A stretch of 24,000 nucleotides of DNA from Nitrososphaeraceae archaeon (GTDB lineage: Archaea; Thermoproteota; Nitrososphaeria; Nitrososphaerales; Nitrososphaeraceae). Below the pieces are notes generated by a model. That model worked only from the letters and a program-made list of their open reading frames with translations, had not been told where the DNA came from and searched no databases. This document shows, one piece after another, positions 147 through 13,027 of the stretch. Positions within the stretch are counted from its first letter, which is position 1; each line of letters begins with the position of its first letter. Where the stretch lies: positions 1,672 to 25,671 of the forward strand of contig QCWD01000005.1 of the NCBI GenBank assembly GCA_013114725.1, given 5' to 3'. The position numbers were made by a program, and so were the translations under genes.

Positions 147-1356
147 TTTGAATTGATTCCACCTCATCAGATTTACCGTCCAAAATGAAATCAGATATAA
201 CATTTTTTGCCCTTTCTCTATTTTTTTTAAATTCAATAATAAAATCTTTAGAATTATCTGCAAGATTGTTTTTACATTCTCCACACAAGAGATTTCCAGA
301 AGTACAACGATAAAATCTCTCATTAGATTTTTTTTCCGAATCAAAGAAATATTTTAGATACCAAAAAACAGGACATTTATTTGGATTCCCTCCTAATTCC
401 CTCTGAATTGCAACTGTCGGTTGTCCTCCTGTTAATGACGATTTTATCTTTTTAACTACGACTTCTGGTTCGTCGGTTGTTAAAACTGCATCATCCGGTT
501 TTGAAGAAGACATTTTTGAATTCATTGTCAAACTAGGTAAAAACTTACTATGAATTTGTGCTGGTTTGTAGTATCCTAATTTTTCTGCAACATCCCGTGT
601 AATTCTCCAATATGGGTCCTGATCTATGGCAGCAGGAATAAGTACAGGTGTCGGTTTATTTTCTAAAACAGATGGTAGAAAACAAGGTGATGCTTGTATT
701 GGAGGAAATCCTATCATGCCGATGTTTGTGTTATTTGAAAAACCAAAAGCAGCTTTTGCAGTAGAAAAAGTAATTTTTCTAGAAATATCTAAAGCTATTG
801 GATACAGATGTTTTATATGTATTGTATCTATGATAATTTTTGTAAGCTCTGGCTTAAAACCTACAGCTATTATATCCAAAATATTTTCGTATGTAAATTT
901 TTTTATTTGCCCTCTTGATAAATTAATATTATAGAGAAATTTTTCATCATCTGTAATTTGAAATAATAATTTTACATCAAACTTTTCTTGTAAATATTTT
1001 GTAAAAATCCATGGAAGTATGTGACCAAGATGAACCATGCCAGAGGGACCTCTACCAGTATAAAGATAAAATTTTTCGCCATGTTGATATTTGTCAAAAA
1101 TCCATCCTAGGTCTCGATGGGAGAAAAAATACCTCTGTTTTAGCAAAGGATGAATTTCTCCAGTTATTTCTTGAATTCTACTGATTAAAAGATCATCTAT
1201 GCTCTGAGTTCCAAATTTTTTAATTAATTTTATGTAAAGATTATCATCGTCTAAACCGCCAGAAACCTCCCAAGGAGTAATCGTAAAATTCATATCGTCC
1301 TCCCTGTTGATTTCATTCTGATCGATATCCATGATTTGTTGTTCATTCCTATTCAT
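139..1356 (-). CDS. trpS: tryptophanyl-tRNA synthetase, archaeal/eukaryal type
   Basis: 405-aa ORF. The N-terminal ITPWEVSG...YIKLIKKFG block matches the eukaryal/archaeal TrpRS signature (human VDPWTV...DYDKLIVRFG). Class I HIGH-type motif GRGPSGMVHLGH, AIDQDPYWR block and KMSSS loop are present. The C-terminal domain carries four Cys. Alternative starts at Met9 or Met22 are possible. Confidence 0.95.
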   Translation of the reverse strand: MNRNEQQIMDIDQNEINREDDMNFTITPWEVSGGLDDDNLYIKLIKKFGTQSIDDLLISRIQEITGEIHPLLKQRYFFSHRDLGWIFDKYQHGEKFYLYTGRGPSGMVHLGHILPWIFTKYLQEKFDVKLLFQITDDEKFLYNINLSRGQIKKFTYENILDIIAVGFKPELTKIIIDTIHIKHLYPIALDISRKITFSTAKAAFGFSNNTNIGMIGFPPIQASPCFLPSVLENKPTPVLIPAAIDQDPYWRITRDVAEKLGYYKPAQIHSKFLPSLTMNSKMSSSKPDDAVLTTDEPEVVVKKIKSSLTGGQPTVAIQRELGGNPNKCPVFWYLKYFFDSEKKSNERFYRCTSGNLLCGECKNNLADNSKDFIIEFKKNRERAKNVISDFILDGKSDEVESIQNA

Positions 1357-1576
1357 CTAGAAAATATAAAATAAATGTTTGAATTGGCTAGTTTTGGCTA
1401 ACTAAAATGCATTAAACATAATAGAAATTAGCTAGTTTATCCGTTTATCATATAGATAACTGTTTGTTTATTGACTATCTCATGTTGGCTTTTATAATGA
1501 TCCCTCCATTGCATTAAGGAAATATAATTACATTCTTTAAACATTTAAAAAATGTTGGTATATACAAATCAATATT

Positions 1577-3067
1577 ATGGTTGATTCAGAAGTAACTCTT
1601 AACAACATTGAAGTTACAATTTTAAAAAATCTTGATATTACTACTCCTGTAGGATTTGATGAACTAATAAAATCAACATCTCTTGGTTTGGACCAGATTC
1701 GTAGAGGAGTTGAATGGTTAAAATATAAAGAATTGATAGTGGTGGATGATAAAACTGAATTTTTTTATGAATTAGATTCCAATGGAATCTATTCGTTATA
1801 TAACGGATTGCCTGAAAGACGATTGATTAATTCAATATTAGATGGTAAAAAAAATATTTCTGAAGTATTATCTGACAAAAAAATTGGCCCATCAGAAATC
1901 AATATTGCTATTGCAAAAGCAAAATTAAACGGATGGATTAAATTGGAAACAAATGGGCAGTTTGAAATAATTCATCATAATAAAAGCATCCAAAGTGATG
2001 AAGAGATTTTAATTAATAAAATCAATAAATATAAAATCCCAAAAAATGAATTGTCTAATTTAGATTTAATCACATTAAAAAAATTATTAAAAAGACCAAA
2101 ATTTATTAAAGAAGTTGAGGAAAAAATCTTTTTCTACACAATTTCAGAAAAGGGATTAGATTTATTAAAAGAAAATGAAGATATACCAAAAGAATCAAAA
2201 CTCACTGTAGAATTACTTTCTACTGGCAACTGGAAAAATGTTTCGTTTTCAAAATTAGACGTCCAAGCTCCAGTTCCTATCTCCTATCCTGGAAAGAAAC
2301 ATCCATTGACTGATCTGATAGATGAGATACGTCATGCATTTATCAGTCTTGGATTTACAGAAATCGAAGGAGATTTAGTGCAATCATCTTTTTGGAATTT
2401 TGATGCATTGTTCACACCACAAGACCATGCTGCTAGAGAAATGCAAGATACTTTCTATATCCAAAATTTAGTTGAAACTGAAAATCCTGATTCAACACTC
2501 ATCCAAAATGTTTCCCAATCTCATAAATTAGGATGGAACTATGAATGGAAAATTGAAGATTCAAGAAGATCGGTATTGAGGACTCATACTACTCCAGTGA
2601 CGTTAAAGTATCTTTCTGACGTTAAACCTGATGAAGCCAAAATTTTTACCATTGGTAGAGTATTTCGTAACGAGAAAGTATCATATAAACACTTAGTAGA
2701 GTTTAATCAAATTGAGGGAATTGTTACTGGAAAGGATGTGACCTTACGTGATCTAATGGGGATACAAAAAGAATTTTACTCTAAGTTGGGAATTAAAAAA
2801 ATAATGTTCTGGCCAACTTTTTTTCCATATACCGAACCTTCACTTCAAACTATGATTTATAATGATAATTTAGAAAAATGGGTCGAATTATTTGGAATGG
2901 GAATTTTCAGGCCAGAAGTTACAAAACCATTAAACATTCCTAATCCAGTTCTAGCTTGGGGAGGAGGGATAGAACGAATTGCCATGTTAAGATATGGATT
3001 AAACGATGTTAGAGATTTATATACAAATGATATGAATTGGCTAAGGAATTTAACAAAATGCCTGTAG
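1577..3067 (+). CDS. pheS: phenylalanyl-tRNA synthetase alpha subunit (archaeal type with N-terminal winged-helix repeats)
   Basis: 496-aa ORF with class II motifs: RTHTTPV, GRVFRNE (motif 2 region), and GGGIERIAMLRYG (motif 3). It is immediately followed by, and overlaps, the beta subunit gene. Confidence 0.95.
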   Translation: MVDSEVTLNNIEVTILKNLDITTPVGFDELIKSTSLGLDQIRRGVEWLKYKELIVVDDKTEFFYELDSNGIYSLYNGLPERRLINSILDGKKNISEVLSDKKIGPSEINIAIAKAKLNGWIKLETNGQFEIIHHNKSIQSDEEILINKINKYKIPKNELSNLDLITLKKLLKRPKFIKEVEEKIFFYTISEKGLDLLKENEDIPKESKLTVELLSTGNWKNVSFSKLDVQAPVPISYPGKKHPLTDLIDEIRHAFISLGFTEIEGDLVQSSFWNFDALFTPQDHAAREMQDTFYIQNLVETENPDSTLIQNVSQSHKLGWNYEWKIEDSRRSVLRTHTTPVTLKYLSDVKPDEAKIFTIGRVFRNEKVSYKHLVEFNQIEGIVTGKDVTLRDLMGIQKEFYSKLGIKKIMFWPTFFPYTEPSLQTMIYNDNLEKWVELFGMGIFRPEVTKPLNIPNPVLAWGGGIERIAMLRYGLNDVRDLYTNDMNWLRNLTKCL

Positions 3068-4725
3068 TAAATATTTCTAAATCCCATTTCAAAGAGTTAC
3101 TTGAAGGTTATTCTATAGAACAAATAATCGACATTTTACCATATATATCACTAGACATAGAAGGAGAGGATGACAGAGAAATTCGCATCGAATATAATCC
3201 CAACAGACCAGATTTTGCAAACGAATTCGGAATAATAAGGGCTCTTAACGGTATTTTAAATATTCAAAAAGGAATTCCAAAATTTGAGACTATTGAAAAT
3301 GGAGATAGAACCATGTCGATTATAATTGATTCTTCTGTTATTCCAATCAGACCTGTTATTCTGGGTATTTGTGCCTATGGAAAATGGGATATTACTTTAG
3401 AATTAGCTAAACAAATAATTTCCACTCAAGAAGATCTCCATAACGGAATCGGACGTGGACGCAACAAAGCATCTATTGGCATACATGATCTTGATAAATT
3501 AAAATTTCCTATCTATTATACAACTCTTGATAGTAAAGAAAAATTCATTCCACTTGATGAGAAATTATTATTTAGATTTGATCAAGTTCTGGAAAAACTC
3601 GAGGTAGGAAAGAAATACAGGCATATTTTAAAATCTGATCACATAAAAAATTTCAGATGTCCTGTTTTGATCGACAGTTTGGAAAGAATAATTTCATTTC
3701 CTCCTATTATAAACAGTGATTTTAGCAAAATTGAAAAAACTACAAGAAATTTGTTTGTGGAGATAACTGCATCAAACCAAGATACTGCAATCAATATGTT
3801 ATCAATAATGGCTTATTTTCTTTTTGATGCAGGATTTTCTATAAAACCCATTTTTATCCATGACCAAAACAATATTTTTTCATCCACTTCTGTTATCCAA
3901 AACTTTACTCTCAAATTGAATTTAAGCTCCGTAAACAAAATTTTGGGGCTGAACCTAAATGTTAAACAAATAGAAGAATGCTTAAACAAAAGCAGAATCG
4001 GAACTAAAATTCTTGATGATAATACTATCTTGTGTGAAATACCTGCATATCGTGTAGACATAAAAAACGAGATAGATTTAGTAGAAGAAGTGATCATTGG
4101 TTTTGGAATCTTAAACTTAAAACCAAACATAGCATCTTTTCAATCAGGAAAGTTCCACCCATTTCATATCTATCTAAGTTTTTTCAGAGAACTTTTGATT
4201 GGTTTTGGTTTTCAAGAGGTAGTAAATTTCAACCTAATTAATGAAAATGTACAATACGATCAAATGAACATTATGCATCCAGTAAATATAATCAGGGTGG
4301 AAAAGCCAAAAAGTAGTGGACATGAAATATTGCGAGATTCACTAATTCCTTCTTTGCTAAACAATCTCTCTCATAACGTTCATGAAGAATATCCACAAAA
4401 AATATTTGAAATAGGGAAATCATTTAGACTGGAAGATAAGCGTATAGTTGAAAATTGGAATTTAGGCATAATGGTCTCTCATAAGAATACAGGATATACA
4501 GAATTAAAATCCATTCTTCAATATATAATGAAAATAAAGCAAAACAAACAAATTGTCACAAAATCAGATACAAATTCAATATATATTGATGGTAGATGTG
4601 CTTCTATTATTTTAGATGGATGTGTGATAGGGCATTTAGGTGAGATTCATCCACAAATAATAAACAATTTCTCAATTAGAATCCCAGTTACTGCAATTGA
4701 GATTAACCTATCACTGCTTTTTTAA
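3058..4725 (+). CDS. pheT: phenylalanyl-tRNA synthetase beta subunit (archaeal type)
   Basis: The ORF track opens at 3037 (MAKEFNKMPVV...). I prefer the ATG at 3058 (MPVVNISKSHF...), the usual archaeal PheT N-terminus, which overlaps the pheS stop (3065-3067) by 10 nt. B3/4 and B5 domain-like regions are present (YNPNRPDFANEFGIIRAL, IPAYRVDIKNEIDLVEEV). Position directly after pheS supports the call. Confidence 0.92.
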   Translation: MPVVNISKSHFKELLEGYSIEQIIDILPYISLDIEGEDDREIRIEYNPNRPDFANEFGIIRALNGILNIQKGIPKFETIENGDRTMSIIIDSSVIPIRPVILGICAYGKWDITLELAKQIISTQEDLHNGIGRGRNKASIGIHDLDKLKFPIYYTTLDSKEKFIPLDEKLLFRFDQVLEKLEVGKKYRHILKSDHIKNFRCPVLIDSLERIISFPPIINSDFSKIEKTTRNLFVEITASNQDTAINMLSIMAYFLFDAGFSIKPIFIHDQNNIFSSTSVIQNFTLKLNLSSVNKILGLNLNVKQIEECLNKSRIGTKILDDNTILCEIPAYRVDIKNEIDLVEEVIIGFGILNLKPNIASFQSGKFHPFHIYLSFFRELLIGFGFQEVVNFNLINENVQYDQMNIMHPVNIIRVEKPKSSGHEILRDSLIPSLLNNLSHNVHEEYPQKIFEIGKSFRLEDKRIVENWNLGIMVSHKNTGYTELKSILQYIMKIKQNKQIVTKSDTNSIYIDGRCASIILDGCVIGHLGEIHPQIINNFSIRIPVTAIEINLSLLF

Positions 4726-4903
4726 AAATTTAAAGTACTTTTATATTTGTATTAGTGTTAAAAAAAGTGCCAAAAGCAAAAATATTTTGGTAACCCCGTT
4801 AAGAGAGTGCACTAGGAGAAGTACACTTGAGTGTATGGCTATCAATGAATACGTGTGGGTCAGAGGCGGGGGACAATTATTGATACATATATAAAACTAA
4901 ACA

Positions 4904-5092
4904 CTATTGAGTCAAGTCAGATATGCTATTTTTGATTATGAATTTAGCCTCCCTTGAAATATTATATTTATCCAGGATTCTTTGATCTTTTATAAGACTA
5001 TTTCTAAAATCCGGTTCACTTGCAGCTTTAAGGAGAATTTCGCTTATAACTTCGGCATCCTTTTGTTTGGAAACCAATTTATACAGTATCAA
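4904..5092 (-). CDS. small hypothetical protein with NHLP-like (nitrile hydratase leader peptide-like) helical domain; candidate YcaO-TfuA substrate or partner
   Basis: 62-codon open frame in a stop-rich, AT-rich background. The segment KAASEPDFRNSLIKDQRILDKY aligns position by position with the NHLP core pattern KAWxDPxFKxxLLxNPKxxLxxE. There is no ATG, and the only canonical start is TTG at 5092. It is divergent from ycaO across a 72-nt TATA-rich spacer. No Gly-Gly cleavage motif and no obvious core peptide. Confidence 0.5.
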   Translation of the reverse strand: MILYKLVSKQKDAEVISEILLKAASEPDFRNSLIKDQRILDKYNISREAKFIIKNSISDLTQ

Positions 5093-5164
5093 CGTTTGAT
5101 GTATATAAATTTATTGTATATTTCGTAAACTTGATATGAACAATGAATATCTTTTAAACCTAAA
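5093..5164. promoter_or_regulatory. divergent promoter region between the NHLP-like ORF and ycaO
   Basis: The 72-nt spacer contains TATATAAA (5102-5109, which reads TTTATATA on the minus strand) and GTATATTT (5116-5123, AAATATAC on minus). These are archaeal TATA-like elements, placed about 25-60 nt from the TTG at 5092 and the GTG at 5165. No experimental support. Confidence 0.3.
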
Positions 5165-6475
5165 GTGATACTCAAAAGCAGATTAAAGTGGTCATCCGAA
5201 GGGACATCTAGAACAATACCTGTTGATAAAACTCTTACTAAAATTTCAAAACTTGTCGATAAAATAGGTGTAACAAGATTGGCCGATATTACATATATGG
5301 ATAGATTATTTATTCCAAATTATTCTTCAGTATTGCCTGGTACGGATGACTATATTTGGGTATATAGTGGAAAAGGAGCAACAAAAAAACATGCTAAGGC
5401 AAGTGCTTTGATGGAAAGCATAGAACGTTATTCCTCACTACCTAATTTTTACCTCGGTGATTTTATTCAAGGAAGTCATAAAGATTTATCATCGAAATAT
5501 AAAATACTTCACCCTTACCAAGTAGTCGAGCCATTAAATTTTGATTACAATGATGAAATGATTATGGACTATCTATTAGGCTATGATATACAAAATAAGG
5601 ATGAAATTTTGGTCCCTGCCGCGTTGGCATTATTTAGATATCATCCAAATTCTCCCGCAATAAATCCATTTGCTGTTCACCATACCAATGGTTTGGCATC
5701 TGGAAATGTATTAGAAGAAGCAGTTTGTCATTCTCTCTGTGAAGTTATTGAAAGAGATGCGATTAGTTTGGCACAATTACGTGCTAGTGCAATTCCATAT
5801 CATTTTCTAGTACATATTTCGGAAAACTTGGCAATAAATGGTTATTCCATAAATGGAAACTCAATTAAGGACAGTTTTTTTGACGACAATGCTATTTTTC
5901 CTGACATTGATCTTGATAGCATCGATTTTCTGCCAGCAAATAAATTAATCGATAAATTCCAAACTGAAAATATTTCTTTATTTATCAAGGACATTACCTC
6001 AGACATAGGGATACCGACTTTTATTGCAACCTCCGTAGAATGGATTTCTCATGATTACGGGTATTTGGCAGAAGGACACGGGACCCATCCGGATAAGAGA
6101 ATTGCCTTGCTACGTTCAATTACCGAGGTATCTCAAACGAGAGCAGCTAATATTCAAGGTGCTAGAGACGACCTCAGAAAAATTCGATATAGTGATGGCA
6201 ATAATGAAGATAAAAGATCATGGCAATTTACTCCATCAACAAAAATAATCAATTTCTCGGATATTCCTAGTTATTATCAAGTAGATATTTTGGATGATAT
6301 TAATTTGATATTACAGAATCTCAAACGAAGTGGATTAAATCAAGTTATTGTAGTTAATTTAACAAATCCTAATTTGGACATACCTGTTGTTAGGACAATA
6401 GTTCCCGGACTCGAAACTTTTAAATTTTTAAAATCGGTTATAGGTCCAAGAGCAAAGGCGTATTTTAAAAAATGA
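5165..6475 (+). CDS. ycaO: YcaO-family protein (ATP-dependent peptide backbone amide activation; TfuA-associated type)
   Basis: 436-aa ORF with a GTG start (a stop codon at 5144-5146 closes the frame upstream). It has the two signature YcaO ATP/Mg motifs ALMESIERYSS and SLCEVIERDA, plus HHTNGLASGN. It lacks the C-terminal PxPxP of azoline-forming YcaOs. Its stop overlaps the tfuA start (ATGA at 6472-6475). Confidence 0.93.
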   Translation: MILKSRLKWSSEGTSRTIPVDKTLTKISKLVDKIGVTRLADITYMDRLFIPNYSSVLPGTDDYIWVYSGKGATKKHAKASALMESIERYSSLPNFYLGDFIQGSHKDLSSKYKILHPYQVVEPLNFDYNDEMIMDYLLGYDIQNKDEILVPAALALFRYHPNSPAINPFAVHHTNGLASGNVLEEAVCHSLCEVIERDAISLAQLRASAIPYHFLVHISENLAINGYSINGNSIKDSFFDDNAIFPDIDLDSIDFLPANKLIDKFQTENISLFIKDITSDIGIPTFIATSVEWISHDYGYLAEGHGTHPDKRIALLRSITEVSQTRAANIQGARDDLRKIRYSDGNNEDKRSWQFTPSTKIINFSDIPSYYQVDILDDINLILQNLKRSGLNQVIVVNLTNPNLDIPVVRTIVPGLETFKFLKSVIGPRAKAYFKK

Positions 6476-7140
6476 CTAAACCAATAATTTTTTTAGGACC
6501 AAGTTTAAGTCATAAAAAAGCCAAACAAATTTTAGATGCAGATTATAGATTTCCAGCTAAAAAGGGAGATCTGTTAAACCTATTAACATTAACCAGTACA
6601 GAGAAAATACAAATCGGTTTGGTCGATGCGGTATTCTTACAGGATTATCCTCCAACACCAATTGAGGTTTACCAATTAGTGGCTAGAAGTAATCAATTTC
6701 AAGTTTTCGGTGCTTCGAGCCTAGGTGCATTAAGAGCTGTCGAACTAGAAAAATACGGCATGATAGGAATTGGTAAAATATTTGATTTTTATAAAAGAAA
6801 TATTATAGATGCTGATGATGAAATTGCAGTAACTTTTGACCAATATCAAAATAATCTTATCTCCGAAGCCTTGATTGATATACGATATAATCTTTTTCTT
6901 GCGTATAAACATGGTATAATTAACAAAGAAGTTAAAAGGAATATGATAAAAATTGCTAAAAAGATTTATTTTCCTTATCGAACATATGATAACATTATTA
7001 ATAAAACATTAGAAAAATATCCTTCGTGTTTTGAACAAATAAATTTGTTTAGATCTTTTATCATTCACAATAGAAGGAGTCTCAAAGAAAGAGATGCTAT
7101 TGAACTGTTACGTTATCTTAAAACTTCTATACAAAAATAA
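6472..7140 (+). CDS. tfuA: TfuA-like protein (YcaO partner for thioamidation)
   Basis: 222-aa ORF starting MTKPIIFLGPSLSHKKAKQIL...FPAKKGDLLNLL. This matches the TfuA N-terminal hallmark (xFLGPSL ... P.xxGDL). The 4-nt ATGA overlap with ycaO indicates translational coupling. Confidence 0.9.
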   Translation: MTKPIIFLGPSLSHKKAKQILDADYRFPAKKGDLLNLLTLTSTEKIQIGLVDAVFLQDYPPTPIEVYQLVARSNQFQVFGASSLGALRAVELEKYGMIGIGKIFDFYKRNIIDADDEIAVTFDQYQNNLISEALIDIRYNLFLAYKHGIINKEVKRNMIKIAKKIYFPYRTYDNIINKTLEKYPSCFEQINLFRSFIIHNRRSLKERDAIELLRYLKTSIQK

Positions 7141-11323: not shown

Positions 11324-11449
11324 ACGATTATCGACGTTAATTATTCTGTGTATTAAATCTTCAAGTCTTTAAAGTTGAAATCATATCTGATTTGATTGCT
11401 TGCAAACAATTTATATTTGATCTATTGTCGAAACATCATTGTAGTTTTA

Positions 11450-13027
11450 ATGGTAATTTCTGGAAAAAGAATTGTATTAACTGCAGATAGAAGTTTGATG
11501 ACTAACTACAGAGGAAATTTTTTATATGGTTTTATTGCATGCGGTCCGTACGAATTAGTTCCTGAATTTGTTTTTGATAAACTTTTTTGTCCAAGTGTTG
11601 AAACCGATAAAAGGACTGGAGAAGTTAAAGTTGCTCAATGTGGGTTAAGAAGAATAGAAGGAGCACTTTTACAAGAATATAACAAAAATGATATTTTTAT
11701 TGCTCATCCTGAGATGCTTGAAAAATGTATAGGTCCAGATACAAAAGTTGTTGGAATAAATGTAATGGATCCTTTAGGAATGGCACCTGTAACAACAACC
11801 ATGTCACCTGAAAAACTATCTTATGTTGCGATGAAATTCAAAAAGATGTGTGCTTCAATTATTCAATTAAAGAAAAAATACAATTTTAAAGTGGTTGTAG
11901 GAGGAAATGGTTCTTGGGAACTAGCTAAACCTGACCGTATGCGTATTCATGGAATTGATACTGTTGTGATAGGCGAAGCAGATGAACTAGCGCTTGACTT
12001 ATTTCATGACCTTGAGGCAGGGGATGCACCAGAATTACTTCATACGTTTGTTCGTAATATAGAAAATATACCAATGATAAATGGTCCTACGATAAATTCA
12101 CTAATTGAGGCAATGAGAGGTTGTGGGAGAGGTTGTGATTTTTGTGATGTAAATAAGCGTTCTAAAAAAGATATTCCATTATCTCGTTTGCAGGAAGAAG
12201 CAAAAATAAATCTTAATTATGGGTTTGATTCCATTTGGTTACAATCTGATGAAATGCTGCTTTACGGTTGTGATAATAAAGATTTTGTACCAAATAAAGA
12301 CGCAATAATAGATCTATGGACTGGCTTAAAATCAGTCGGTGCCAATTTTGTAGGAACTACACACATGACACTGTCTGCAGTAGCTTCATCTCCCGATCTG
12401 ATTAAAAAATTATCACAGATTAATGATATGGAAAATAATGGTAGATGGCTCGCTACCAATCTGGGAGTCGAAACAGTAGCTCCTCGAATGGTAAAGAAAC
12501 ACTTGGGTGTAAAAACAAAACCGTTTCAGCCAGAAGAGTGGGGTTCGGTAGTTAGGGAGGGATGTAAAATCTTGAATGCAAATCATTGGTTTCCAGCTCT
12601 AACATTAATTATTGGGTGGCCAGATGAAACGCCTGATGAAACACAATATACAATAGACCTTATAGAAGATTTCAGACAAATGAATATGAGAGGACTAGTT
12701 GCACCTCTATTATATCAAGATTTTTCAGAAAAAAATTCAATGCATTTTGGTAATCTTAATGAGGCACAATTTACTTTATTTTGGAAATGCTGGCAACATA
12801 ATCTTCATATAATCAATGATATAATCCCCATTATTATTAGAAACAAAACATACGGTCCGGCAATGAAAATGTTTATGGCTGGACTAATCAAGGTTGGGAC
12901 ATGGGCGATAATGAAATATCTTCGAGGATTATCAAAAGAACTATTCAACGGACGAATACCTGAAGACATTGTAGATAAATACGCAAGGAAGAGATCTGTT
13001 ACATTAACTCCCTCTCCAAAACTTTAA
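11450..13027 (+). CDS. radical SAM enzyme with N-terminal B12-binding-like (Rossmann) domain, COG1032-type; substrate unknown
   Basis: CX3CX2C cluster motif in AMRGCGRGCDFCDV. An upstream Rossmann-like segment is present (KVVVGGNGSWE...IDTVVIGEADE), along with GWPDETPDE, typical of this family. The ORF track starts at TTG 11396. I prefer ATG 11450 (MVISGKRIVLTADRS...), because the 18 codons before it look like spacer. Confidence 0.88.
   Translation: MVISGKRIVLTADRSLMTNYRGNFLYGFIACGPYELVPEFVFDKLFCPSVETDKRTGEVKVAQCGLRRIEGALLQEYNKNDIFIAHPEMLEKCIGPDTKVVGINVMDPLGMAPVTTTMSPEKLSYVAMKFKKMCASIIQLKKKYNFKVVVGGNGSWELAKPDRMRIHGIDTVVIGEADELALDLFHDLEAGDAPELLHTFVRNIENIPMINGPTINSLIEAMRGCGRGCDFCDVNKRSKKDIPLSRLQEEAKINLNYGFDSIWLQSDEMLLYGCDNKDFVPNKDAIIDLWTGLKSVGANFVGTTHMTLSAVASSPDLIKKLSQINDMENNGRWLATNLGVETVAPRMVKKHLGVKTKPFQPEEWGSVVREGCKILNANHWFPALTLIIGWPDETPDETQYTIDLIEDFRQMNMRGLVAPLLYQDFSEKNSMHFGNLNEAQFTLFWKCWQHNLHIINDIIPIIIRNKTYGPAMKMFMAGLIKVGTWAIMKYLRGLSKELFNGRIPEDIVDKYARKRSVTLTPSPKL

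What the first reader, a model, noticed from the sequence alone, without database searches (positions are those of the whole stretch)
4904..5092. 62-aa ORF mimicking an NHLP leader but lacking a recognisable core peptide or Gly-Gly site
The sequence is MILYKLVSKQKDAEVISEILLKAASEPDFRNSLIKDQRILDKYNISREAKFIIKNSISDLTQ. The stretch KAASEPDFRNSLIKDQR lines up residue for residue with the NHLP consensus KAWQDPxFKxxLLxNPK. K, A, P, F and L are identical, and D/E, K/R, L/I and N/D are conservative.

Unusual features:
- There is no ATG anywhere in the frame; TTG at 5092 is the only canonical start.
- The ORF ends about where bacterial NHLPs continue into the xxLHLVLP strand, the GG cleavage site and the core.

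It could therefore be a leader-only recognition or chaperone protein, a substrate modified within its short C-terminal tail (SISDLTQ), or a chance ORF. A 62-codon stop-free frame is uncommon in sequence this AT-rich.
Basis: partly seen in the sequence, partly recalled or inferred. Interest (0 to 1): 0.65.

Follow-up and report, generated by a model that had tools for sequence, protein, structure and literature searches.

The report
Leader-like mini-protein paired with YcaO-TfuA
The flagged ORF is a real, strongly conserved 57-residue protein of soil ammonia-oxidizing archaea that looks like the front half of a bacterial "NHLP" peptide leader. In many lineages it sits head-to-head with a sulfur-inserting enzyme pair (YcaO-TfuA) whose target in these organisms is unknown, which makes it the best candidate for that target or its helper.

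Summary
The ORF exists as described, but its start is wrong. Homologs in 86 loci all begin at the second in-frame TTG (5077), about 24 nt after a conserved archaeal TATA box. The product is therefore 57 aa (4904..5077, minus strand), probably from a leaderless mRNA.

It is not a chance ORF. dN/dS is about 0.08 and the frame is intact in every locus.

The NHLP resemblance is real homology:
- A profile of the family finds bona fide NHLP proteins.
- Nitrile hydratase alpha subunits are its best PDB hits.
- hhalign against NHLP domains gives 98% probability.
- Only the first ~40 residues are shared. The beta-strand region, Gly-Gly site and core are absent, replaced by a family-specific helix ending in Φ-x-[DE]-[LIM]-x-[QN].
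- All curated cut-offs are missed.

In 50 of 88 assessable loci, covering five sequence groups only ~30% identical to each other, the gene lies next to a McrA-type YcaO-TfuA pair. It is usually divergent, 85-143 nt away, while the outer flanking genes differ. In genus Nitrososphaera it is unlinked.

I consider it most likely the enzymes' dedicated substrate (~45%). A trans-acting partner is the main rival. Nothing biochemical was shown here.

The parts
4904..5077 (-). Coding sequence of the 57-aa NHLP-clan mini-protein (TTG start 5077..5075, TAG stop 4906..4904). Residues ~4-44 form the NHLP/nitrile-hydratase-alpha-like three-helix part. Residues ~42-57 form the family-specific helix 4 and the tail ...SISDLTQ.
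   Evidence: ORF. Start position from 86 homologous loci. Purifying selection. hhalign to NHLP domains covers residues 4-44. AF2 model has 4 helices, pLDDT 87.
5078..5092 (-). They are most likely untranslated spacer between the TATA box and the transcription start.
   Evidence: No homolog conserves a start here. The sequence upstream of the conserved TTG is unconserved, and in many loci a stop codon directly precedes the conserved TTG.
5101..5117 (-). Core promoter of the mini-protein gene. The TATA box 'TTTATATA' is at 5109..5102 with a BRE-like A/T-rich stretch upstream. The family consensus is GCAyTAAGATTATATAC, ending ~24 nt before the TTG start, which implies a leaderless or near-leaderless mRNA.
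   Evidence: Fixed-distance conservation in all loci, both linked and unlinked to YcaO, and in groups B, C and D. Assigning it as TATA/BRE and placing the transcription start are inferences.
5130..5141 (+). Conserved motif CTTGATATGAAC, 23 nt upstream of the YcaO GTG start. It is probably the YcaO core promoter, back-to-back with the mini-protein promoter.
   Evidence: Its reverse complement GTTCATATCAA(G/C) is conserved in YcaO-linked loci of groups A1, C and D. The spacing to the called YcaO start is the same in L001. The function is inferred.
5165..6475 (+). YcaO, the ATP-dependent amide-activating enzyme, of the McrA-glycine-thioamidation type.
   Evidence: PF02624 at 4.7e-70. TIGR03266 at 277 bits, below the 365 cut-off. 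Best PDB relative is M. jannaschii MJ1094 (6pe3/6peu) at 5.6e-37, with a ~33-residue insertion at about residues 212-258.
6472..7140 (+). TfuA, the sulfur-delivery partner of thioamide-forming YcaO enzymes. It overlaps the YcaO stop codon by 4 nt.
   Evidence: PF07812 at 5.4e-33. NF033432 at 201 bits, below the 235 cut-off. PDB 6xp8 at 3.8e-27.

Best explanation
The locus encodes a real 57-aa all-helical protein, translated from TTG 5077 on a probably leaderless mRNA. Its first ~40 residues are homologous to the helical N-terminal part of NHLP/nitrile-hydratase-alpha-type RiPP leaders. Its last ~15 residues are a lineage-specific amphipathic helix ending in a conserved Φ-x-[DE]-[LIM]-[TKS]-[QN]-COOH tail.

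It is transcribed divergently from a McrA-type YcaO-TfuA thioamidation pair, from back-to-back promoters ~25 nt apart.

Proposed mechanism (inferred, not shown):
1. The NHLP-like helices dock the protein onto YcaO.
2. YcaO uses ATP to activate a backbone amide of the mini-protein, most plausibly in the C-terminal helix or tail.
3. TfuA supplies sulfide equivalents, converting the amide to a thioamide.
4. There is no Gly-Gly site, peptidase or exporter, so the product would stay uncleaved and intracellular. It would be a thioamidated mini-protein rather than a secreted antibiotic.

Ammonia oxidizers lack methyl-coenzyme M reductase, the only known archaeal substrate of this enzyme clade. That makes this protein the leading candidate for their substrate.
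For: The gene is real:
- 135 homologs, almost all 57-58 aa.
- Frame intact and TTG start conserved in 86 loci.
- dN/dS 0.08-0.09.

NHLP-clan homology:
- A family profile searched against 1.84 billion representatives finds proteins that independently pass the TIGR03793 cut-off. Examples are P0140 at E 2.1e-8 and P0151, P0156, P0163, P0169 and P0172.
- 31 of 32 family members hit NF038399 (best 1.8e-7) and TIGR03793 (best 2.1e-5).
- Top PDB hits are nitrile hydratase alpha subunits, 1v29_A at 2e-5.
- hhalign against NHLP domains gives 98.1% probability, E 1.2e-13, over residues 4-44.

Coupling to the enzymes:
- 50 of 88 assessable loci have YcaO-TfuA next to the small gene. In 44 of them the gap from the small gene's tblastn match to YcaO's is 85-143 nt.
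- The coupling holds across five sequence groups sharing only 19-45% identity.
- The YcaO proteins stay orthologous, at 53-67% identity.
- Outer neighbours differ. On the small-gene side they are PheRS, a 174-aa protein with RNAP subunit L, HTH_45 or HxlR. On the TfuA side they are L15e, BacA, rhodanese with sulfite reductase, or two permeases.

Leader-versus-core pattern:
- Between groups the NHLP-like segment is 45% identical, against 19% for helix 4 and the tail.
- Within the A1 group the tail is nearly invariant.
- 246 homologs end at the same position with the same motif.

Other points:
- The enzymes are thioamidation-type but score below the McrA equivalog cut-offs.
- Literature places AOA YcaO in the McrA-YcaO clade and names no substrate (PMC5589413; PMC8120280).
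- The proteins are acidic to neutral (pI 4.5-5.6 in group exemplars; the window copy is pI 8.0), which is unlike DNA-binding regulators.
Against: - No biochemical or mass-spectrometry evidence of modification exists.
- In genus Nitrososphaera (36 assessable loci, GC 0.41-0.57) the gene is equally conserved but has no YcaO/TfuA within 10 kb. Its neighbours there are a Na+/H+ exchanger, OGG and Amt. I could not determine whether those genomes carry YcaO-TfuA elsewhere.
- Two group-E loci sit next to TldD/PmbA instead.
- The protein is predicted as a compact helical bundle including the tail. It has essentially no Gly, whereas the known archaeal site is a glycine.
- Methanogen YcaO needs no leader, so a docking domain is not obviously required.
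- Divergent adjacency among related genomes partly reflects shared ancestry.
Confidence: 0.45

Rival explanations
1. Trans-acting partner. The mini-protein is a stand-alone 'leader' that binds YcaO, or YcaO-TfuA, and activates, stabilises or targets it towards a different substrate protein encoded elsewhere. This would resemble leader peptides supplied in trans to RiPP enzymes, or an adaptor or chaperone.
For: - It has only the leader-like part of NHLP and no core, Gly-Gly site or Cys/Ser/Thr-rich region.
- It folds as a complete four-helix domain.
- Known protein thioamidations (McrA, uL16) act on large proteins not encoded next to the enzyme (PMC5589413; PMC13063428).
- AOA YcaO has a ~33-residue insertion relative to MJ1094 that could be a docking surface. 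This last point is speculative.
- Linkage to YcaO-TfuA is as for the main explanation.
Against: - No candidate second substrate is conserved near the enzymes in any locus.
- A pure docking module would not obviously need a strictly fixed C-terminus and a near-invariant tail.
- Methanogen homologs work without such a factor. That statement rests on my own knowledge of the reconstitution literature, which I could not read here.
Confidence: 0.2
2. The mini-protein has no biochemical connection to thioamidation. It would be a conserved small helical protein of unrelated role, such as a regulator or structural factor, whose position beside ycaO reflects inherited gene order and a shared bidirectional promoter.
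For: - The gene is fully conserved with its own promoter in 36 Nitrososphaera-genus loci without YcaO nearby, and beside TldD/PmbA in two group-E loci.
- All loci come from one archaeal class, so synteny by descent contributes.
- The nitrile-hydratase-alpha motif is also a structural element of ordinary enzymes.
Against: - Adjacency survives repeated rearrangement of both outer flanks, and divergence of the small protein to ~30% identity while YcaO stays ~60% identical.
- The homologous NHLP clan consists of RiPP precursors that sit next to maturases, YcaO enzymes among them. The YcaO link in that statement is established knowledge (Haft 2010).
- Acidic pI argues against a DNA-binding regulator.
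Confidence: 0.2
3. A classical secreted NHLP-type RiPP precursor whose leader is cleaved and whose C-terminal tail is exported as a bioactive thioamidated peptide.
For: NHLP-clan homology. Adjacent thioamidation enzymes. Group-B and group-E loci have two permease genes next to TfuA, and group E sits next to TldD/PmbA peptidases.
Against: - No Gly-Gly or other recognisable cleavage motif, and no C39 peptidase or ABC exporter in the window. The neighbours are housekeeping genes.
- The whole length is under strong purifying selection with an invariant tail, rather than a hypervariable core.
- All curated NHLP cut-offs are missed.
Confidence: 0.04
4. Chance ORF in AT-rich intergenic DNA.
For: ORFs of this length arise by chance about 10 times in a shuffled window. 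There is no ATG start, and the gene is left uncalled on one public contig carrying the same locus (L087).
Against: 135 homologs, intact frame in 86 loci, dN/dS ~0.08, a conserved start codon and a conserved promoter.
Confidence: 0.01

Closest known systems
NHLP (nitrile hydratase-like leader peptide) RiPP precursors, TIGR03793 (Haft, Basu and Mitchell 2010)
   Same: Homologous N-terminal helical segment with the motif (K/R)A-x-x-(D/E)P-x-F(K/R)-x-x-L-x-x-x-P-x-x-(V/I)L. Encoded next to a YcaO-family maturase.
   Different: Matches only model positions ~3-43 of 77, at 15-22 bits against a cut-off of 50.9. It lacks the 'xVLP' beta-strand region, the Gly-Gly cleavage site and any core (one search compared). 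There is no peptidase or exporter. It is archaeal, and conserved over its whole length.
Os1348 family NHLP-clan protein, NF038399 (Pseudomonas sp. Os17; PMC7726476)
   Same: A small, all-helical NHLP-clan protein without the NHLP motifs typical of TOMM precursors. It is the best-scoring curated model for 31 of 32 members. It is encoded beside putative modification enzymes, and its function is unresolved.
   Different: Scores are 14-28 bits against a cut-off of 40. Os1348 is 85 aa with six helices and forms a dimer. Its partners are a GNAT, a HEXXH peptidase and a SagB-type dehydrogenase, not YcaO-TfuA. It is bacterial and antibiotic-associated.
McrA-glycine thioamidation system of methanogens (YcaO-TfuA; TIGR03266 / NF033432; MJ1094 structures 6pe3/6peu)
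   Same: The enzymes next to the mini-protein are the closest relatives of this pair. Literature places AOA YcaO in the same clade (PMC5589413).
   Different: Both enzymes score below the equivalog cut-offs, and YcaO has a ~33-residue insertion. The known substrate, McrA, is a large enzyme subunit absent from ammonia oxidizers. No leader-like small protein has been described for that system.
Thioamitide and other thioamidated RiPP clusters (thioviridamide type; PMC8120280)
   Same: A small precursor-like gene beside adjacent ycaO-tfuA genes.
   Different: Those precursors have cleavable leaders, variable cores, further tailoring enzymes and export. None of these is seen here. The genome-mining paper lists Thaumarchaeota TfuA clusters but names no precursor.
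E. coli YcaO thioamidation of ribosomal protein uL16 (PMC13063428)
   Same: A precedent for a YcaO acting on a folded cellular protein rather than a secreted peptide.
   Different: That system has no TfuA, its substrate is not encoded next to the enzyme, and recognition uses a tertiary surface rather than a leader-like domain.

Membership tests
NHLP leader peptide family (TIGR03793) | Whole-protein score at or above the curated cut-off of 50.9 bits | tested here: not met
   The window copy gives no hit. Relatives score 15-22 bits. 31 of 32 members hit with best E 2.1e-5.
NHLP leader peptide family (TIGR03793) | N-terminal helical segment homologous to nitrile hydratase alpha | tested here: met
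   A profile of the family finds bona fide NHLP proteins. Nitrile hydratase alpha subunits are the top PDB hits, at 2e-5. hhalign gives 98.1% probability over residues 4-44.
NHLP leader peptide family (TIGR03793) | Second half of the leader domain (beta-strand region ending in the xVLP motif) | tested here: not met
   The alignment stops at model position ~43 of 77 and at residue 44 in hhalign. The protein continues as helix 4. NHLP domains carry '..E.t....vLP' at that point.
NHLP leader peptide family (TIGR03793) | Gly-Gly (GG/GA) leader cleavage site followed by a core peptide, usually rich in Cys/Ser/Thr | tested here: not met
   There is no GG, no Cys and essentially no Gly in any group. 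The protein ends 13-16 residues after the homologous segment.
NHLP leader peptide family (TIGR03793) | Genomic association with a RiPP maturase and a C39-peptidase/ABC export system | tested here: inconclusive
   A maturase-type YcaO with TfuA is adjacent in 50 of 88 assessable loci. No peptidase or exporter is present in the window. Some other groups have permeases or TldD/PmbA nearby.
Os1348 family NHLP-clan protein (NF038399) | Score at or above the curated cut-off of 40 bits | tested here: not met
   Scores are 14-28 bits. The best E among members is 1.8e-7. The window copy gives no hit.
Os1348 family NHLP-clan protein (NF038399) | Small all-helical protein lacking classical NHLP/TOMM precursor motifs | tested here: met
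McrA-glycine thioamidation system (TIGR03266 YcaO + NF033432 TfuA) | Adjacent ycaO and tfuA genes of this subfamily | tested here: met
   These are the best NCBIfam models for both proteins. The genes overlap by 4 nt. The best PDB relatives are MJ1094 and 6xp8.
McrA-glycine thioamidation system (TIGR03266 YcaO + NF033432 TfuA) | Equivalog-level scores (365 and 235.2 bits) | tested here: not met
   Scores are 276.9 and 201.5 bits.
McrA-glycine thioamidation system (TIGR03266 YcaO + NF033432 TfuA) | McrA present as substrate | not testable with these tools
   The whole genome is not available. Absence of MCR from ammonia-oxidizing archaea is established knowledge. Nayak et al. note the AOA homologs only in passing.
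RiPP precursor / YcaO substrate (generic) | The peptide is actually modified by the neighbouring enzyme | not testable with these tools
   This needs mass spectrometry or reconstitution. Only genomic linkage was shown.

The most novel reading that the evidence does not exclude
This family is the native substrate of the YcaO-TfuA pair of ammonia-oxidizing archaea. It would be a stand-alone, uncleaved, backbone-thioamidated mini-protein that carries its own leader-like docking domain. That would be a third kind of protein thioamidation, after McrA and uL16, and an intermediate between RiPP biosynthesis and ordinary protein modification.

A further speculative extension: the thioamide sulfur could serve as a soft-metal (copper) ligand in these copper-hungry organisms. 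I rate that extension at no more than ~5% on its own.
Probability: 0.4. Interest if true: 0.8.

Novelty: new variant of a known kind. Interest (0 to 1): 0.66.

Why it matters
In archaea, thioamide-forming YcaO-TfuA enzymes have one proven substrate, methyl-coenzyme M reductase. Ammonia-oxidizing archaea lack that enzyme yet keep close homologs of the pair. This was noted in 2017 and is still unexplained in the literature I could search.

A conserved leader-like mini-protein transcribed head-to-head with the enzymes gives a concrete and cheap hypothesis to test. Co-express three small genes and look for a +16 Da shift.

If confirmed, it would:
- add a new class of thioamidated protein;
- show that the NHLP leader fold is used outside bacterial antibiotic pathways;
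- identify a previously unannotated conserved gene in globally important soil nitrifiers. The gene is often missed by gene callers because of its TTG start.

Tried and rejected
- **Direct family scans of the window protein.** Pfam and NCBIfam gave nothing. The signal appears only with relatives or profiles.
- **Complex modelling.** I prepared 37 paired YcaO-linker-mini-protein sequences. I did not submit them, because the tool returns no coordinates or inter-chain confidence and restricts inputs.
- **YcaO-TfuA in genus Nitrososphaera.** The genome-contig scan, protein searches and context look-ups were exhausted. A literature search for Nitrososphaera plus YcaO found nothing. The supplement of PMC8120280 lists genomes, not hits.
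- **Mahanta et al. 2018 on substrate rules.** The paper is not held. The resemblance between the tail (I-x-D-L-T-Q) and the McrA site (G465-F-D-L-Q, sequence) therefore remains an untested two-residue coincidence. I give it no weight.
- **tRNA and Rfam searches around the ORF.** Negative.
- **Regulator hypothesis.** Considered and down-weighted because the proteins are acidic.

Full report
**Setting**

The window is 30% G+C and carries archaeal housekeeping genes: TrpRS, PheRS alpha and beta, ribosomal protein L15e, GluRS, mevalonate-pathway genes and enolase. The YcaO protein is identical to one annotated from a 'Nitrososphaeraceae archaeon' metagenome-assembled genome. The organism is therefore a soil-type ammonia-oxidizing archaeon (AOA).

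**Checking the observation**

The 62-codon frame 4904..5092 on the minus strand and its translation are exactly as reported.

- ORF length is not evidence. Shuffled versions of the window contain 10.3 +/- 3.0 ORFs of at least 62 codons.
- TTG 5092 is not the only possible start. A second in-frame TTG lies at 5077.

**The gene is real, and its true start**

A protein search returned 135 homologs, nearly all 57-58 aa, from Nitrososphaeraceae and Nitrososphaera genomes and soil metagenomes. All are annotated 'hypothetical' or not called at all.

A genome scan found 143 relatives, and I examined 80 loci. Across all 86 loci:
- the frame is intact;
- a TTG (once GTG) sits at a fixed position 18-24 nt before the invariant 'AE(I/V)ISEILL';
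- in many loci a stop codon immediately precedes that TTG.

This position corresponds to TTG 5077 in the window.

Upstream, every locus has the motif GCAyTAAGATTATATAC ending ~24 nt before the TTG. In the window this is TTTATATA at 5109..5102. By the usual archaeal geometry, with the TATA box centred ~26 nt before the transcription start, the mRNA should begin at or a few nucleotides before TTG 5077. TTG 5092 lies only 9 nt after the TATA box and would not be transcribed. The promoter assignment and the leaderless inference are mine. They were not measured.

The product is therefore 57 aa (4904..5077).

Purifying selection is strong:
- median pairwise dN/dS is 0.08-0.09;
- synonymous sites are saturated in most pairs;
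- codon-position entropies are 0.54/0.34/1.43.

**Is it NHLP-like?**

On its own the window protein hits nothing in Pfam or NCBIfam. It belongs to a small sub-clade with a one-residue deletion and a P-to-Q change in the 'KDP' turn. At family level the signal is clear.

- 31 of 32 members hit NF038399 ('Os1348 family NHLP clan protein', best E 1.8e-7) and TIGR03793 (NHLP leader, best E 2.1e-5). 26 of 32 hit PF14407.
- A profile of the family, searched exhaustively against 1.84 billion representative proteins, finds proteins that pass the TIGR03793 cut-off by themselves. They have tandem NHLP domains, 'VLP' strands and Cys-rich C-termini.
- Against PDB sequences, the best hits are nitrile hydratase alpha subunits (1v29_A, E 2e-5). 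'KAWTDPEFKQRLLEDPETVLRE' aligns to 'LLKAASEPDFRNSLIKDPAKVLEK'.
- hhalign against an alignment of NHLP domains gives 98.1% probability and E 1.2e-13 over residues 4-44. That alignment was built from hits of my own profile, so the test is partly circular. The NCBIfam and PDB results are independent of it.

The homology covers only the first helical half: TIGR03793 positions ~3-43 of 77, scoring 15-28 bits against cut-offs of 40-51. Where NHLPs continue into the beta-strand/'xVLP' region, the Gly-Gly site and the core, this family has a fourth helix and then stops.

It belongs in the NHLP clan but is not a member of either curated family.

**Association with YcaO-TfuA**

The divergent neighbours are a YcaO (5165..6475) and a TfuA (6472..7140). 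Their best models are the methanogen McrA-glycine thioamidation proteins, but both score below the equivalog cut-offs. Their best solved relatives are M. jannaschii MJ1094 and a TfuA structure.

- Of the 97 loci gathered, 88 have enough upstream sequence to judge.
- 50 of those carry YcaO-TfuA next to the small gene. In 44 of them the distance between the small gene's tblastn match and YcaO's is 85-143 nt.

The family profile also revealed four more groups of 57-60-aa proteins with the same four-helix layout. They are full-length homologs (hhalign 99.5%) but only ~30% identical to the window's group. Their contexts are as follows.

| Group | Loci | Position relative to YcaO-TfuA |
|---|---|---|
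| B | L088, L095 | Divergent neighbour |
| C | L089, L092, L093 | Divergent neighbour, with PheRS on the other side exactly as in the window |
| D | L094 | Divergent neighbour, with PheRS on the other side exactly as in the window |
| E | L091 | One gene away |
| E | L090, L096 | Not near YcaO-TfuA; beside a TldD/PmbA pair instead |

The YcaO proteins in these loci are 53-64% identical to the window's. That is the same range as for loci of the window's own group in other genera, so the enzymes are orthologous while the small protein differs greatly.

The genes outside the trio vary:
- on the small-gene side: PheRS, a 174-aa protein with RNAP subunit L, HTH_45 or HxlR;
- on the TfuA side: L15e, BacA, rhodanese with sulfite reductase, or two permeases.

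The trio is the only constant block.

In YcaO-linked loci a second conserved motif lies 23 nt before the YcaO start. It reads CTTGATATGAAC on the YcaO strand, at window 5130..5141. The two genes therefore appear to be driven by back-to-back core promoters.

**The exception**

All 36 assessable unlinked loci of the window's group come from higher-GC genomes labelled Nitrososphaera sp. (GC 0.41-0.57, against 0.27-0.42 for linked loci). There the gene keeps its promoter, TTG start and invariant tail. It sits between a Na+/H+ exchanger and an OGG glycosylase, with nothing RiPP-related nearby.

I could not find out whether those genomes have YcaO-TfuA elsewhere. This is the main weakness of the case.

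**Anatomy bearing on mechanism**

- Between the five groups, the NHLP-like segment is 45% identical. The N-terminus and helix 4 with the tail are 16-19% identical.
- Within the window's group the tail S-I-x-D-L-T-Q is nearly invariant.
- In 246 of 274 homologs the C-terminal end of the family profile falls within 4 residues of the protein's end. Among them positions -6, -4, -3 and -1 are I/F (213), D/E (206), L/I/M (216) and Q/N (207).
- The proteins have no Cys, almost no Gly, and are acidic to neutral.
- The window holds no peptidase, exporter or further tailoring enzyme.

This is the RiPP pattern of a conserved recognition part and a lineage-specific C-terminal part. It is combined with features of an ordinary cellular protein: whole-length purifying selection, a compact predicted fold, and no cleavage or export.

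**Interpretation**

The gene, its start, its NHLP-clan ancestry and its genomic coupling to YcaO-TfuA are shown. The rest is inferred.

I consider it most likely (~45%) that the mini-protein is the dedicated substrate. The NHLP-like helices would dock on YcaO, and YcaO with ATP and TfuA-delivered sulfide would thioamidate a backbone amide, probably in the C-terminal part. The product would stay uncleaved in the cell.

| Alternative | Weight | Comment |
|---|---|---|
| Stand-alone leader-like partner acting in trans on another protein | ~20% | Thioamidation of large proteins (McrA, uL16) is a precedent |
| Unrelated small protein kept beside ycaO by descent | ~20% | The unlinked Nitrososphaera copies are the argument for it |
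| Classical secreted NHLP RiPP | ~4% | No cleavage site or exporter |
| Chance ORF | ~1% | Refuted by the comparative data |

**Literature**

- Nayak et al. [quoted passage not shown]
- A 2021 genome-mining paper lists eight Thaumarchaeota TfuA clusters. It draws a 'hypothetical protein' next to YcaO in Nitrosocosmicus but names no precursor.
- A 2026 paper counts only McrA and uL16 as thioamidated proteins and expects more substrates.
- Searches combining TfuA/YcaO with NHLP, Nitrososphaera, Thaumarchaeota or ammonia-oxidizing archaea found no description of this protein.
- The founder of the closest curated family, Os1348, is a bacterial 85-aa helical dimer of unresolved function with different partner enzymes.

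**Verdict**

This is a genuine, unannotated, conserved gene. It is a truncated, archaeal variant of the NHLP clan, tied to a protein-type thioamidation pair whose substrate in these organisms is unknown. The function remains a well-motivated hypothesis that one co-expression experiment could settle.

Noticed in passing
window 4789..4876 (minus strand), 28 nt after the mini-protein stop: A highly conserved ~88-nt non-coding element (TTGTCCCCCGCCTCTGACCCACACGTATTCATTGATAGCCATACAC...GTGTACTTCTCCTAGTGCACTCTCTTAACGGGGTTACC). It is present in 23 loci, always in the same orientation as the mini-protein gene. Its start lies 43-300 nt after the end of the gene's tblastn match in 20 of them and ~475 nt in L084, but ~3.5-3.8 kb away in L007 and L043. 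It has an invariant closing stem CCCCG/CGGGG and a central hairpin with compensatory changes at three pairs. There is no Rfam or tRNA match. T-runs follow it at 4783..4760. It could be an unknown small RNA or a 3'-UTR element.
   Followed up: partly
window 5075..5077; loci L001-L086, L089, L092-L094: The start codon is TTG in essentially every member of groups A1, C and D, on what looks like a leaderless mRNA. Group B uses ATG with the same promoter spacing. A universally conserved weak start on a leaderless transcript is unusual and may set a low or regulated expression level.
   Followed up: partly
window 5165..6475, residues ~212-258 of YcaO: The AOA YcaO carries a ~33-residue insertion relative to the M. 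jannaschii McrA-thioamidating YcaO (MJ1094), between the two conserved halves. It might be a lineage-specific binding surface. Its conservation was not examined.
   Followed up: no
L089, L092, L093, L094 (about 1100-3900 in each): In group-C and group-D loci a sulfite/nitrite reductase (NIR_SIR) and a rhodanese lie immediately beyond TfuA. That would fit local supply of reduced sulfur for thioamidation. They are absent from the window, where L15e follows TfuA.
   Followed up: no
L090 4554-8312, L096 3105-8197, L091 6001-8423: Group-E mini-protein genes are followed on the same strand by a conserved pair, a ~220-aa protein and a ~440-490-aa BNR_2-like protein. In two loci they are divergent from a TldD/PmbA peptidase pair rather than YcaO-TfuA. 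TldD/E is known, from my own knowledge of microcin B17 maturation, to process a YcaO-modified peptide.
   Followed up: no
L087 (public contig carrying the same locus); L001-L003: The mini-protein gene is not called on one public contig carrying an identical YcaO. Elsewhere it is variously called with 58, 62, 81 or 88 aa because of upstream in-frame codons. Annotation of this family is inconsistent.
   Followed up: yes
window 11396..13027 (+): A 543-aa radical SAM protein (PF04055, 2.3e-8) lies ~4 kb from TfuA, after a tRNA-Ala, a small zinc-ribbon-like ORF and a Nudix-like ORF. No link to the YcaO locus was seen in other loci.
   Followed up: no
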